A stretch of DNA of 64,000 bases, from NCBI GenBank assembly GCA_963693365.1, contig CAVNZM010000003.1:4101106-4165105 (forward strand), in the 5' to 3' direction. The notes under the pieces are model-generated. The model saw nothing but the letters and a program-made list of their open reading frames with translations, ran no database searches and was not told where the DNA came from. Each line of letters begins with the position of its first letter. Position 1 is the stretch's first letter. Below, piece after piece: positions 26,301 through 32,300 of this stretch. Origin of the DNA: Amoebidium appalachense. Its lineage: Eukaryota; Protista; Ichthyosporea. Made by a program: the position numbers and the translations under genes.

Positions 26301-29300
26301 GGGGGGGGGGGGGGGGGGAGGGGGGGGGGGGGGGGGGGGGGGGGGGGGGGGGGGGGGGGGGGGGGATGGGTGAGTGTGTGTGTGTGTGTGTGTGTATGTG
26401 TGCGTGTGTGCGTGTGTGCGTGTGCGTGCGTGTGTGTGTGTGTGTGTGTGTCTGTGTGTGCCTGTGTGTGTGTGTGTGTTGGCGGGGGGGGGGGGGGGGG
26501 GGGGGGGGGGGGGGGGGGGGGGTGGGTGTGTGTGTGGGTGTGGGTGTGGGTGGGTGGGTGGGTGTGGGTGTGGGTGTGCGCGCGCACGCGCGTGTGTGTC
26601 TGTGTGTGTGCCTGTGTGTGTGTGTGTGTGTGTGTGTGTGTGTGTGTGTGTGTGTGTGTGTGTGTGTGTGGGTGCGTGTGTGTGCGTGTGTGTGTGTTGG
26701 CAGGGGGGAGGGGTGGAGTGAGTGTTTGTGCGTGTGCGTGCGTGCATGTGTGTGTGTGTGTATGTGTGTGTGTTTTGGGTTTACGCTGCTTACTCGAGGC
26801 AAAGAGAGACCAGTCTCATGTATGGGGGGCTTTTTGCTCGGTATATCCCCTCAGTGTTGTATCATGGTCAGGTACTTAGATCGGGTGATGATTATATATC
26901 AGGGTTTTCCTACTCTATGAAGCACCATATAAACTACTAGATTCAATTGGGTAACGCGGGGCCCCAGGGGGGGCCCGCTTACACACGATTACATCATTGG
27001 CTATATTCCTACTTCTTTTGAACCTTTTATTTATTTACAGGAGATAGTAAACTAATATATGCATTTTAAAAACAAATGGAACGGCCAGCAGCGTCAGCAC
27101 TATGTTCGGGCCCTACTGGCAACGCGTCGTATACACGGGGCCCCGGGAGGCCCCGCTTTTAAGTATTACGTGAAATATGGGTGATACTGGCCAAAAAAGA
27201 GCTGGCGCGAGCCTGCTGTATTCGATCGCGCTGTAATAACGATCTTTCGGGCACTGATCATGAACATCGATCAGAAAAATAGGTTTAAACTTTGGGTTTT
27301 GCGATCCGATCAAAGGGAGTCGAACAGGTCTACAATGTGTATTCGGATTACAAGGGAAAGCACCAAATAAGTCGTATCTGTTTAGCTGGATGCAGAGTTT
27401 TAAACAATATTTGACGTAAAATTGTTTCCTTGTTTATAGGACTTGACTTGTTTCGGGTCTTATTTCCGGTTAACTGCGGGTATTCGCACCATCTGCCTTG
27501 AAAGTAAGGCCTCCAGGGTTGAGAATTGACCAATTTCAGATTCATAATTGATTGGCGGCGACTCAAAAGTTGGGCTTGGATCTACTTACTATATAGGGCA
27601 TAGTCCAAAGTCATTTAAAGTACATAAAGTCCAAAACTACAATAGATAACAGGCTTTGTATGTGTAAGTAAAAAGCTGGTAGGGGAAAAAACACGTTAAG
27701 TTGATATAAGCAACAAATGGTGTCTGACCCGTCCTTCATGGTCTAAACAGGCAAAAACCACGATCACAGCGGCCCAGAGGAATATTCTGGTGAGCACAGG
27801 TCGCTACCAGCCTGGGCCCAAATCCAGGCGGTTTTTGCCTCTTTTGACAGTGAAGGCGGCGTCGGACACCCCTAGTCACTTATATCAACTTTGCACGTTT
27901 TTATATTTACCAACTTTTACTTAGAACACCAGACCCTCTTCTCTAAGTAAAATCGGCCTTAACTTGACTTTCAACACTTGGATCGGAGTATTTGGCCCAG
28001 TTTCTAAGCCCAACTTTTTGACCCAATTAGATCTGAGATTGGTCAATTAGGCGGGACCGTCTCGCGGTCCCATCACGGGCTGGCAGAGCGCATGATATGA
28101 TGGACATGGTTTGTATAAAACGGTGCGCATACACCTTGACACAGAACCCCATGGGCTACTTATACTGTTCAATTTTGCTTGCTTGGGTAGGCCAAATACG
28201 AAGTCTTCCCGGGGGAGTGAGGTGTGTGTGTGTGTGTGTGTGTGTGTGTGTGTGTGTGTGTGTGTGTGTGTGTGTGTGTGTGTGTGTGTGTGTGTGTGTG
28301 TGTGTGTGTGTGTGTGTGTGTGTGTGTGTGTGTGTGTGTGTGTGTGTGTGTGTGTGGTGGTGGTGTGGTGCCAACCCCCCCCCCCCCCCCCCCCCCCCCC
28401 AAAGAAAAGAAATAAATAAATAAATAAAAAGAGAAAAAAAACAAAAAGAAGAAAAGAAAGAGAAAAGGTAAAAAGAAAAGGACGGGGCAAAAAAAGCAAC
28501 AATACTCATCTTTACAACCCCACGCAGTTCCACGCACACGGTGGTGACCAACGGCCGCTACACCATAGCCCTCTACACTACCAGGCCCATAGCCTTTGGC
28601 GAAGAACTCACTATCGACTACCACTGCACGTATGCTCTTCCCCCCCCCCCCCCCCCCCCCTCCCTCCCCCCGGCTTTCTCTCCGTAAGCCCCCCCCCCCC
28701 CCCCCCCCCCCCCACACACACACACACTACTGCTCCCTCCCTCTCTAAGCCCCCCCCCCCCCCCCCCCCCCCTGCCCCCCACCCAAAGACACATACACAC
28801 ACACACACATACACACACACACACACACACGCGCGCGCGCACACACACACACACACACACACACACACACACACACACACACACACACACACACACACAC
28901 ACACCACACACAGCACATCGACACCATTACCATCAGAGATACTTGAAGTGTAACTGTGCCATTATTGTCCTACCCTTCTCCACTTTCTCCACAGAACACA
29001 ACCAGGCATGCTCCCATCACCGTGTGTGTGTGTGCGCGCACCTCCCCCATGCCTCGCCCCTTCCCTCTCACCATCGTTTAATCCCTTCCTCGACATACCG
29101 AAGGGGACCAAACCATCCATTCCACGTTCAGTATTTTTTTCTGTCTTCCTCTCCTTTTTCACCTCAGCAGTAGTTTATGCACGGAAAAGACCAAAAAATA
29201 CGACCAAGACCAAATAATACGACCAAAAATATCTCTTATATATCCCACCAGCACGGAAAAGCCCAAGGAATATCTTTAATCGTATGACTGTGTTGATTCA

Positions 29301-32300
29301 ACCAATGGAGGTGTAAGCATGCATTTCATACTTAGGTGGCAAAGAATTTCAGCAGACTATCTCACGTATATCCCACCAGCACTGAAAAGACCAAGGAATA
29401 CCACAAGACTACCTCACTCATCACACCAACACTGAAAAGACCAAAGAATACCACCAGACTATCTCACTTATACCCCACCAGCACTGAAAAGACCAAAGAA
29501 CACCAGCAGAATATCTCACGTATATCCCACCAGCACTGAAAAGACCAAAGAATACCACAAGACCATCTCACTTATACCCCACCAGCACTGGAAAGACCAA
29601 AGAATACCAGCAGAATATCTCACACATATCCCACCAGCACTGAAAAGACCAAGGAATATCAGCAGGCTATCTGCCTGTGTGGCACTGTCGACTGCCGCCA
29701 GTCCTATCTGCACTGCCCTAGTGTCTTCGACCATGAAACGGTACATATATCCCCCCCCCTCCCTCTCCCTGCGCGCGCGAGCGCGAGGTTGGGCCCTCCT
29801 TATGATGTACACTGTTTGTGTGTGGTTTGCTCTCTGGATTGTGTTGCTCTTTATTCTTTATGAACGTGTGCAACTCTATAACACATTCTAAACCCCCCCC
29901 CCCCCCCCCCCCCCCCCCCCCCCCCCCCCCCACACACACACACACCACCACCACCACCGCCGCCGCCGCCGCCACCGCCACCACCACCACCTTTCAGTTT
30001 GGTTTGCCTTCCTTTTTTTCCCGTCCTTTTTACACATTCCACCTTCACGATGTTGCCAACCCCCTTGCATCGTATTTCACACACTGACCACCTAGTCTCC
30101 AAGGTGTACCCACCCGTATATCTCCTTCCACTCCTCCCTCCCCCCCCCCCCCCCCCCCACACACACACACACACACACACAAACACACTCCCACTCCCAC
30201 ACACACTCCCACTCCCACACACACTCATACTTACACTCACACTCACACTCACACTCACACCCGCACTCTCACTCACATTCACCCCCCCCCCCCCCCCCCC
30301 CCCCCACATATACACACGCACACCTAATCTGACATTGTGCATTTCTCTTCAAACACAGGCACAGCGGCGCTACCACAACACCTGCGAAAGAGTTGCCCTC
30401 CTTCTTCAAGCAAGCACGTGCACAGAGCTCTGCCCGGGAGCAGAGGGATGTCTCAAGAGGCATGGGTTTGGGGAGAGCCTACTGGGGGGTACACCCGTGT
30501 GGCTACGAGCGTTTGCTGCTCTGACCCTACAGTGAGATAACCCCCCCCCCCCCCCCCCCCCCCCCCCCCACACACACACACTCTCTCTCTCTCTTCCTCC
30601 CCGGGTCCCCCCACTTTAATAGTGTATAAAGGAAAAATGTGCATGTATTGCATGAGTCAAACCCTAACAGTTGAAAGGGTACTGCATTCCCCCCCCCCCC
30701 GCCCCTCCTCCCCCCGCCCCTCCCCCCCCCCCCCCCCCCCCACACACACACACAAATGACACGTGTGCAAAGGAAGGTTTGGCGTATATCTGGGTAAATG
30801 TGAGTTAAACCCCGACAGTTGACAACGTAATGAACATATGCTTGTCTCCTGTTTCCTCCAATCTACACAGGGCATAGTCGCTTTTCATTTGGATTTGAAG
30901 GCATCATAACCAACGGGTGGCTATCATGACATCTGCTTGATTGTGGCAATTTCCCCATCTGATATATCAAGCGTATATCTCATGTGGATGACAGGGCCCC
31001 TGCACCAGCTCGAAAGTCAACAATTCATATTTCCGACAGAGTTTCTAATATATTAAGAAGCGTTTGTTGGGGTTGTCTCTCGTTCGGCTGTCCCTTTGCG
31101 TGCACCCTTTGCTTGCCGCAACCAGCCCCCCATCCCTCGCCACCCCATGCTCACGTTTGTCCCCTCTCCTTTTTCCTTGTTTCGCTTTCCATCCTCCATC
31201 ATTCCTTCTTTCTTTCTTTCCTTCCTTCTCTCCGTCTTTCCTTCATTCCTACTTTCTTTCCTTCTTTCCTTCTCTCTTTCTTTCCTTCTTTCCTTCTTTC
31301 CTTCTGTCCTTCTTTCCTCCTTTCCTTCTTTCCTCCTTTCATTCTTTCCTCTTTTCCTCCTTTTCTTCCCCCCAGGCACGTAGAGAACGAGAGAGAAGTG
31401 CTACCGGGCATTCTCTTGGAGACGAACACGGATCCTACAATGGCAGAGGTACCCCCCCCCCCCCCCCCCCCCCCTCCCCCCCCCCGCGGGTGTTGGGCTC
31501 TGTCGTTAACATTGCACTCTCTGCACACATTCATCTTCTCGGCATGACCACCACACACCCCGGTCATAGTGATCAATGTTTATTCCTCTGTTCATGTGGG
31601 TTATGTAAGTCCGTGTCTTTGCTTTTTAGCCTATAGCACAACACAGTTTAATCCCCTGTGTTGTGTATGAATAATATCGACACATTCCCCTAACACACAT
31701 GAGCAAGAAGGTGCATGCACAAGGAACACACACACAGGCAGGCACCTGCACACATACGCGAGCGCGCGCACACACACACACACACACACACACACACACA
31801 CACACACACACACACACACACACACACACACACACACACACACACACACACACACACACACACACACATACATACACACACACACACACACACACACACA
31901 CACACACACACACACACACACACACACACACACACACACACACACAGGCACAGGCAGAGTCCATTGCCGACGACATGAGGGCCGGGCGCATCCGCAATCT
32001 TGCCATCAGTATTGACAAGGCAAAGCACTTTCTGCAGTGCCAGGTGTGTGTGCGTGTGCGTGTGTGTGCGTGTGTGTGTGTGTGTGTGTGTGTGTGTGTG
32101 TGTGTGTGTGTGTGTGTGTGTGTGTGTGTGTGTGTGTGTGTGTGTGTGTGTGTGTGTGTGTGTGTGTGTGTGTGTGTGTGTGAATGTATGGGTGTGTGCG
32201 TGTGCGCGTGTGTTTGTGTGTGTGTGTGTGTTCGTGTGTCTGTTCGTGTGTTTGTATTCGTGTATATGTGTGTGTTTTCGCTTCATTTGTGTTTGTTTGT

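What the first reader, a model, noticed from the sequence alone, without database searches (positions are those of the whole stretch)
29170..29672. Recurrent amplification of 3' splice junctions into decoy-acceptor arrays (lead example: SET exon 11)
The intron-end/exon-start junction is tandemly repeated at ~52-bp spacing, with five upstream copies keeping an intact CAG followed by real exon sequence. Every upstream acceptor checked is out of frame or runs into a stop; the in-frame 29481 site hits TGA at 29537. The same architecture occurs independently at 21690-22310, 34090-34425 and 46200-46582, and more weakly at 22960-23423 and 39620-39800, among 34 coding introns. I saw no equivalent at donor sites, and the most downstream copy is always the intact one. 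Inference: either a mutational process targets 3' splice sites and lengthens introns, or the decoys regulate splicing via NMD. Skipping them would require exon definition rather than first-AG scanning.
Basis: partly seen in the sequence, partly recalled or inferred. Interest (0 to 1): 0.8.

Follow-up and report, generated by a model that had tools for sequence, protein, structure and literature searches.

The report
Acceptor-side "mirage" repeats in protist introns
Six of 34 introns in this likely single-celled relative of animals end in tandem copies of their own last bases, and at the two sites checked the assembled RNA splices to the last copy, so these are likely tolerated repeats of a kind known from lancelets, unusual here for piling up only at intron ends.

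Summary
The lead array is real. The junction of intron 10 and exon 11 of an SDG2/ATXR3-like SET gene is repeated in 52-nt units (22 intron + 30 exon bases). Five upstream copies keep CAG, and DNA contigs of two runs match it letter for letter. Six of 34 introns hold a complex tandem array; all six end between -31 and +36 of an acceptor, none at a donor. Only three carry a long exon piece, one carries about 5 bases, and two stop short of the AG. Spliced contigs use the most downstream AG at both sites tested (three runs). All 13 AG-intact copies would give premature stops, as expected of any intron insertion; nothing supports NMD regulation. The class is known: amphioxus "mirages". This scan noted it many times on animal DNA. 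New here: the density, a likely non-animal host (one named hit) and the 3' polarity (6 of 7 arrays, p about 2e-5 against uniform placement, post hoc; 6:0 acceptor against donor, p 0.03; exon fragments alone 3:0, not significant). The genome-wide test could not be run.

The parts
29181..29672 (+). Lead array: 52-nt unit (22 intron + 30 exon bases), six upstream copies plus a relic; the last unit is the real junction
   Evidence: DNA contigs
29638..29740 (+). SET gene exon 11 (true acceptor AG ends 29637)
   Evidence: spliced contig of X8 joins exon 10 end to 29638 and 29740 to exon 12; homologues show no insertion here
29249..29585 (+). Upstream junction copies with CAG ending at 29251, 29379, 29481, 29533, 29585; CAA at 29429
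28528..28629 (+). SET gene exon 10 (upstream partner; Pfam SET match)
21720..22309 (+). Array before SET exon 5: five diverged copies (55-80% to the real unit), all with CAG, up to 34 exon bases
22995..23414 (+). Array before SET exon 6: four units of about 100-110 nt, ending 9 bases before the exon; no AG or exon copy
34091..34414 (+). Array before SET exon 17: three units of about 115 nt, about 5 exon bases, one of two copies keeps AG
39629..39799 (+). Array of about 32-nt units before the last SET exon; ends 19-31 bases before the inferred acceptor; no junction copy
   Evidence: acceptor 39819 inferred from the open frame, not shown by RNA
46194..46581 (+). Array before CCT exon 46546: two full copies with CAG and 30-36 exon bases, two partial copies without AG
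   Evidence: DNA and spliced contigs
17382..40289 (+). Host gene 1: SDG2/ATXR3-like SET protein, 23 exons, one open frame of 942 codons plus stop
42762..50947 (+). Host gene 2: choline-phosphate cytidylyltransferase (CCT); 5' and 3' ends not fully resolved

Best explanation
These are tandem DNA repeats of intron 3' ends, four of six reaching into the exon, and the RNA contigs splice to the last copy; they likely arose by local microhomology-guided duplication, are likely skipped because exon definition favours the acceptor nearest the next donor, and are likely neutral. Steps: (1) Shown: the exon-11 unit is bounded by a 5-base repeat (TATCT) present at exon +31..+35 and intron -22..-18. Inferred: slippage or template switching there made the first copy. 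(2) Shown: units alternate in two types and copies two apart differ by only 1 and 3 of 52 bases. Inferred: later unequal exchange of 104-nt dimers, ordinary minisatellite turnover. (3) Shown: contigs join at the last AG. Inferred: upstream copies lie too far from the next donor and carry only about 35 exon bases, so they are not defined as exon starts. (4) Inferred: arrays persist since the last copy stays intact, and they lengthen the intron. (5) Least certain: why arrays sit at 3' ends. Likely a real local bias, from a duplication hot spot, better survival of acceptor than donor duplicates, or both.
For: Unit structure, microhomology and dimer pattern. Spliced contigs at the last AG: X8 at exon 11, X12 and X7 at the CCT exon. 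Internal exons are 38-177 nt (n = 29) and introns have a median of 799 nt; 12 of 13 AG-intact copies would give exons of 207-620 nt. Decoys score like real acceptors on a window-built matrix (5.0-7.9 vs 7.5 at exon 11), so weak signals do not explain the skipping. Five homologues show no insertion at this junction. Same behaviour reported for amphioxus mirages (PMC3087553 and PMC3902484, passages) and for F7 intron 7 donors (PMC1557585, abstract and Discussion).
Against: Contigs drop rare forms, so low-level use of upstream copies is not excluded. The X8 contig begins exactly 2 bases before SET exon 5 (594 letters upstream vs 592 for exons 5-10), which is where an alternative upstream sequence would branch: retention, an upstream copy, or skipping of the in-frame exon 4 all fit; a like break occurs at an array-free CCT acceptor in X7. 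13 of 15 aligned copies keep AG against 8.9 expected (nominal p 0.015), but copies were anchored on the AG and seven AG-less units were left out. The copy at 29586 would make a 155-nt exon, inside the normal range, so size alone does not exclude it. Neutral duplication does not by itself predict 6 of 7 arrays at 3' ends.
Confidence: 0.7

Rival explanations
1. A splicing- or transcription-linked mutational process duplicates DNA specifically at 3' splice sites in this genome and is a main route of intron growth, with new complex sequence added at the 3' end and decaying into simple repeats. This refines step 5 of the best explanation rather than replacing it.
For: 6 of 7 sizeable intronic arrays end in the acceptor zone, which holds 0.118 of complex positions (p 1.7e-5; 5 of 6 without the lead, p 1.2e-4). 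Three independent arrays end at +34, +35 and +36. Two arrays end just before the AG, where no splice-site survival filter is needed. Arrays make up 2258 of 27258 intron bases and 17% of complex intron sequence.
Against: One window, picked for the pattern. Acceptor against donor is only 6:0 (p 0.03) and 4:0 for junction-spanning arrays (p 0.125). Donor flanks are more often simple runs (16 vs 10 of 31 within 30 nt; complex fraction 0.36 vs 0.55), which hides or destroys repeats. No steady upstream-older gradient across arrays. Published mirages occur at both ends (PMC3087553, Figure 6 legend).
Confidence: 0.35
2. The upstream copies are functional decoys that tune SET and CCT output through unproductive splicing and NMD, or through intron retention.
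For: 13 of 13 AG-intact copies lead to premature stops; 5 of 5 old copies before exon 5 keep CAG; contig break at the exon-5 acceptor.
Against: Stops are expected for any 50-500 nt intron insertion; 0 of 3 spliced contigs enter upstream; two arrays have no decoy AG; AG retention is biased by how copies were found; copies turn over like a minisatellite.
Confidence: 0.08
3. The clustering is chance plus ascertainment: ordinary minisatellites that are noticed where complex sequence survives.
For: The window was chosen out of very many for this pattern; two low-complexity arrays lie away from acceptors; exon-fragment test p 0.24.
Against: Most complex intron positions (12111 of 15510 counted) are mid-intron, yet no complex array was found there in a scan that treats both ends alike. 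The findings index holds no other window of this genome, so there is no sign the window was picked from many of the same genome.
Confidence: 0.2
4. The arrays are assembly artefacts.
For: No long read or single contig spans an array; X1 and X2 may be the source data.
Against: Copies differ from each other (1-19 of 52 bases at exon 11; 50-80% identity elsewhere) and two runs of different years carry the same unique inter-copy sequences at single-copy depth.
Confidence: 0.02

Closest known systems
Amphioxus 'mirage' minisatellites (Adh3, troponin C, globins BflGb6 and BflGb9, PGBD5); PMC3087553 and PMC3902484, passages read
   Same: Tandem copies spanning an intron/exon boundary, many with intact AG, units of similar size (10-160 bp there, 52-120 here), concerted turnover, normal splicing unaffected. 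BflGb6 is the same acceptor-side layout.
   Different: Mirages are reported at both ends and as single-gene cases in one animal group. Here 4 junction-spanning arrays and 2 junction-adjacent arrays fall in two neighbouring genes, all on the acceptor side, in a likely non-animal. Length polymorphism was not testable.
Human F7 intron 7 37-bp VNTR with silent 5' pseudo-sites (PMC1557585; abstract and Discussion read)
   Same: A minisatellite whose end unit is the real splice site; the copy that keeps the exon at normal length is used.
   Different: Donor side; tested by mutation and explained by oriented scanning. The same Discussion says scanning is widely accepted for 3' sites, which would predict the first AG, the opposite of what the contigs show here.
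Rogers model of intron gain by tandem duplication of proto-splice sites (as cited in PMC3087553, passage; original not read)
   Same: Tandem duplication containing splice signals, with the spare copies spliced out.
   Different: No new intron arises here; an existing intron is lengthened.
Duplicated 3' splice-site constructs of Reed and Maniatis 1986 (recalled; not retrieved)
   Same: As recalled, an upstream acceptor followed by a truncated exon loses to the downstream acceptor with the full exon.
   Different: Engineered mammalian constructs; details not checked here.

Membership tests
Mirage minisatellite | Tandem repeat whose unit spans an exon-intron boundary | tested here: met
   Met for 4 of 6 arrays (SET exons 5, 11, 17; CCT). 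Not met for 22995-23414 and 39629-39799, which are not filed as mirages.
Mirage minisatellite | Many but not all copies keep the splice signal | tested here: met
   13 of 15 aligned junction copies keep AG; further partial copies lack it.
Mirage minisatellite | Regular splicing is not disturbed; the authentic site is used | tested here: met
   3 of 3 spliced contigs at 2 arrays enter at the last AG.
Mirage minisatellite | Concerted turnover of inner units | tested here: met
   Inner copies two apart differ by 1 and 3 of 52 bases; each differs from the real unit by 6-9.
Mirage minisatellite | Copy-number instability between alleles or cells | tested here: inconclusive
   X1 and X2 show the same pieces; they may be one strain, and no reads or second allele were available.
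Regulatory decoy or poison splice sites (NMD-coupled) | Upstream sites are used and accumulate when NMD is blocked | not testable with these tools
   Only assembled contigs were served; none entered upstream.
Regulatory decoy or poison splice sites (NMD-coupled) | Conservation of the decoys across species | not testable with these tools
   Genome index unanswered; no metagenome match.
Intron gain by tandem duplication (Rogers model) | A new intron forms from the duplicated splice signals | tested here: not met
   Exon 10 joins exon 11 directly across one intron; homologues are collinear across the junction.

The most novel reading that the evidence does not exclude
In this genome tandem duplication is aimed at 3' splice sites: roughly one intron in six grows from its acceptor end, duplicated units stop within about 36 bases of the AG, donors are spared, and this polar process supplies a large share of the non-simple intron DNA. 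It would be the first genome-scale, non-animal case of directional intron growth tied to a splice site, and thousands of natural duplicated-acceptor constructs would test exon definition against scanning in a close relative of animals.
Probability: 0.35. Interest if true: 0.68.

Novelty: new member of a known kind. Interest (0 to 1): 0.38.

Why it matters
As single arrays they are ordinary. The value lies in two testable points. First, if the 3' polarity holds genome-wide it names a positional rule for how introns lengthen, which the searches here did not find in print. Second, an acceptor chosen over five near-identical upstream copies is direct natural evidence against first-AG scanning, and for exon definition, in a lineage outside animals and plants if the lineage call is right.

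Tried and rejected
No whole genome was held and the genome index did not answer in six tries, so no independent loci or relatives were examined. A 23-base junction motif had 0 matches in metagenome contigs. The run search listed no holder on record as RNA; X7, X8 and X12 proved RNA-derived only by their spliced contigs. X6 gave no spliced contig at exon 11, only a 203-nt intronic piece (29076-29278, one C>T) and short chance matches; X8 gave nothing on the CCT stretch; neither blank is evidence. A candidate micro-exon at 39586-39619 was dropped since direct joining to 39819 keeps the frame open; not checked with RNA. An upstream-older gradient was looked for and not found. Excess AG retention was rejected as biased. 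A consistent branch-point position was not found: 7 of 31 acceptors have no YTNAY in the last 45 bases. Lineage: SET and CCT exons gave green-plant, algal and animal hits at 58-78% and do not decide it; the only species-named close hit of the intronless kinase is Amoebidium parasiticum at 39% identity, so 'ichthyosporean' is a lead, not a result. Paper searches gave context only. Supplements were not opened; the mirage alignments in PMC3087553 Additional files 4-6 were not seen.
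Full report
Setting. The window is eukaryotic, with introns full of poly-C, poly-G and CA/GT runs. I built a 23-exon plus-strand gene (17382-40289) with one open frame of 942 codons. It aligns to SDG2/ATXR3-like SET proteins (34-38% over 293-660 residues; P0008 carries Pfam SET and SDG2_C). 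A choline-phosphate cytidylyltransferase gene follows, and a minus-strand gene whose exons read like cytochrome b5 (label recalled, not searched) gave three more introns. The lineage is not established. The only species-named close hit of the intronless kinase is Amoebidium parasiticum at 39%. PMC5560861 (passages) says some ichthyosporeans have long, animal-like introns; PMC11244446 (passages) calls Amoebidium genes intron-rich and showed nothing on splice-junction repeats in the passages I saw.

The lead array. Six copies of the intron-10/exon-11 junction precede the real one, with a relic further up. The unit is 22 intron and 30 exon bases. It is bounded by TATCT, found at exon +31..+35 and intron -22..-18, which fits a microhomology-guided duplication (inference). 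Five of six copies keep CAG. Copies 29380 and 29534 differ by 1 of 52 bases and copies 29482 and 29586 by 3, while neighbours among the last three differ by 6-7, so a dimer was likely copied recently.

Is it in the DNA? Contigs of X1 and X2 cover 28925-29655 in overlapping pieces with no differences, with about double depth on the one 37-mer that two copies share (5 rows of that table were not shown). X2 tiles the CCT array likewise. Both runs may be the source of the window and nothing spans an array, so this is support, not proof.

Which acceptor is used? A 2323-nt contig of X8 joins the end of exon 10 to 29638 and 29740 to exon 12. Contigs of X12 (same sample as X8) and X7 (another study) join the previous CCT exon to 46546. 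So 3 of 3 spliced contigs enter at the last AG; of the other non-genomic layings, X6 at exon 11 and X8 at CCT gave no spliced contig. Contigs drop rare forms. One hint against a clean picture: the X8 contig starts exactly 2 bases before exon 5 (594 vs 592), the place where a second upstream sequence sharing AG would merge. Retention, an upstream copy and skipping of in-frame exon 4 all fit, and X7 breaks the same way at an array-free CCT acceptor.

How general in the window? A dust-masked self-comparison found six intragenic local direct-repeat clusters. A scan treating both intron ends alike, with 45-base exon flanks and locally shuffled controls, flagged the same six among 34 introns (60-284 bits; shuffled maximum 30.1; one boundary of a minus-strand intron was 2 bases off). 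Their 3' ends lie at +34, -9, +35, +5, -31 (-19) and +36 from the acceptor. A weak extra hit in SET intron 5 began 123 bases after the donor and was not resolved. Three arrays carry a long exon piece, one about 5 bases, two none. With junction probes on 31 introns: exon start copied upstream 3, exon end copied downstream 0; complex intron end copied 5, and the four intron-start flags were all simple-repeat matches. Counting the low-complexity array at 37392-37558 as a miss, 6 of 7 arrays end in a zone holding 0.118 of complex positions (p 1.7e-5; 6 of 8 with the 14798-14908 repeat, 6.1e-5; without the lead 5 of 6, 1.2e-4). Acceptor against donor is weaker: 6:0 p 0.03, 4:0 p 0.125, 3:0 p 0.25. 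All of this is post hoc on one window. Donor flanks hold less complex sequence. Introns with arrays are longer (763-1382 vs median 721; p 0.03) and fall to a median of 600 without them.

Why the last copy? Upstream copies at exon 11 score 5.0-7.9 against 7.5 for the real site on a matrix from this window, so signal strength does not separate them. Internal exons are 38-177 nt; 12 of 13 AG-intact copies would give 207-620 nt. With introns of median 799 nt this fits exon definition (inference). The nearest exon-11 copy (155 nt) is the expected leak. PMC1557585 (Discussion) notes that scanning is widely accepted for 3' sites and that early duplicated-site experiments disagreed. Reed and Maniatis 1986 is recalled as showing that a truncated exon disables the upstream acceptor; one search did not retrieve it.

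Regulation? All 13 AG-intact copies give premature stops, which intron insertions of this size nearly always do. AG is kept in 13 of 15 aligned copies against 8.9 expected, but I anchored on the AG and left out the relic, two partial CCT copies and the three to four exon-6 units, so I do not count it. I find no support for NMD control.

What is known. Notes of this scan pointed to amphioxus mirages; I checked the papers. PMC3087553 (passages) describes minisatellite-like duplications of intron/exon boundaries at both 5' and 3' ends, with kept splice signals, normal splicing and concerted turnover. PMC3902484 (one passage) agrees. Four arrays here meet that definition; two are junction-adjacent only. 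The scan noted the class many times on animal DNA: 8 of 8 notes under acceptor wording, and under donor wording 6 acceptor-type, 1 donor-only and 1 with both. These are unchecked and word-biased, a lead only. A look-up for protist cases gave none. Six paper searches found no genome-wide report of acceptor polarity; the library lacks most subscription papers.

Verdict. Real, mostly as described, a known kind of repeat, likely neutral. The open and more interesting part is the 3' polarity, which needs the genome.

Noticed in passing
window 52990-63730 and 6430-12130: Diverged (69-82%) repeats recurring about every 2 kb with simple-repeat tracts between them; many stops and frameshifts; the two clusters share short motifs and may be one old repeat family.
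   Followed up: partly
window 54015-54522: Palindromic array of 10/20-bp units (about 22 copies of 20 bp, inverted halves 77% alike), MITE- or foldback-like.
   Followed up: no
window 13225-13418 and 24989-25167: A 190-bp element present in inverted orientation in introns of two genes, 90% identical: a small dispersed repeat.
   Followed up: no
window 1008-2060 (-): Intronless protein kinase frame of 351 codons among intron-rich genes; only 4 relatives at E up to 1e-30, one named Amoebidium parasiticum.
   Followed up: partly
SET and CCT introns, e.g. 19899-19959, 31770-31947, 48240-48330, 23530-23690, 32044-32180: Simple repeats start at the splice sites themselves: CA runs lead straight into several acceptors and GT, C or G runs follow 16 of 31 donors within 30 bases; 7 of 31 acceptors lack a branch-point-like motif.
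   Followed up: partly
window 29133-29173: A strong pyrimidine tract with three closely spaced YAGs sits just before the oldest relic copy and scores above the real acceptor (8.2 vs 7.5), yet is out of frame; possibly the context of an older acceptor.
   Followed up: partly
window 27665-27923: Imperfect 260-bp palindrome inside the long, simple-repeat-poor insert (about 26800-28200) of SET intron 9; possibly a transposon remnant.
   Followed up: no
window 42762-43494: The first two CCT exons as modelled do not join in frame, and the X7 contig breaks at the 45053 acceptor: alternative or missing 5' exons.
   Followed up: partly
window 16330-17382: The minus-strand gene and the SET gene start head to head within about 1 kb, a likely shared promoter region.
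   Followed up: no
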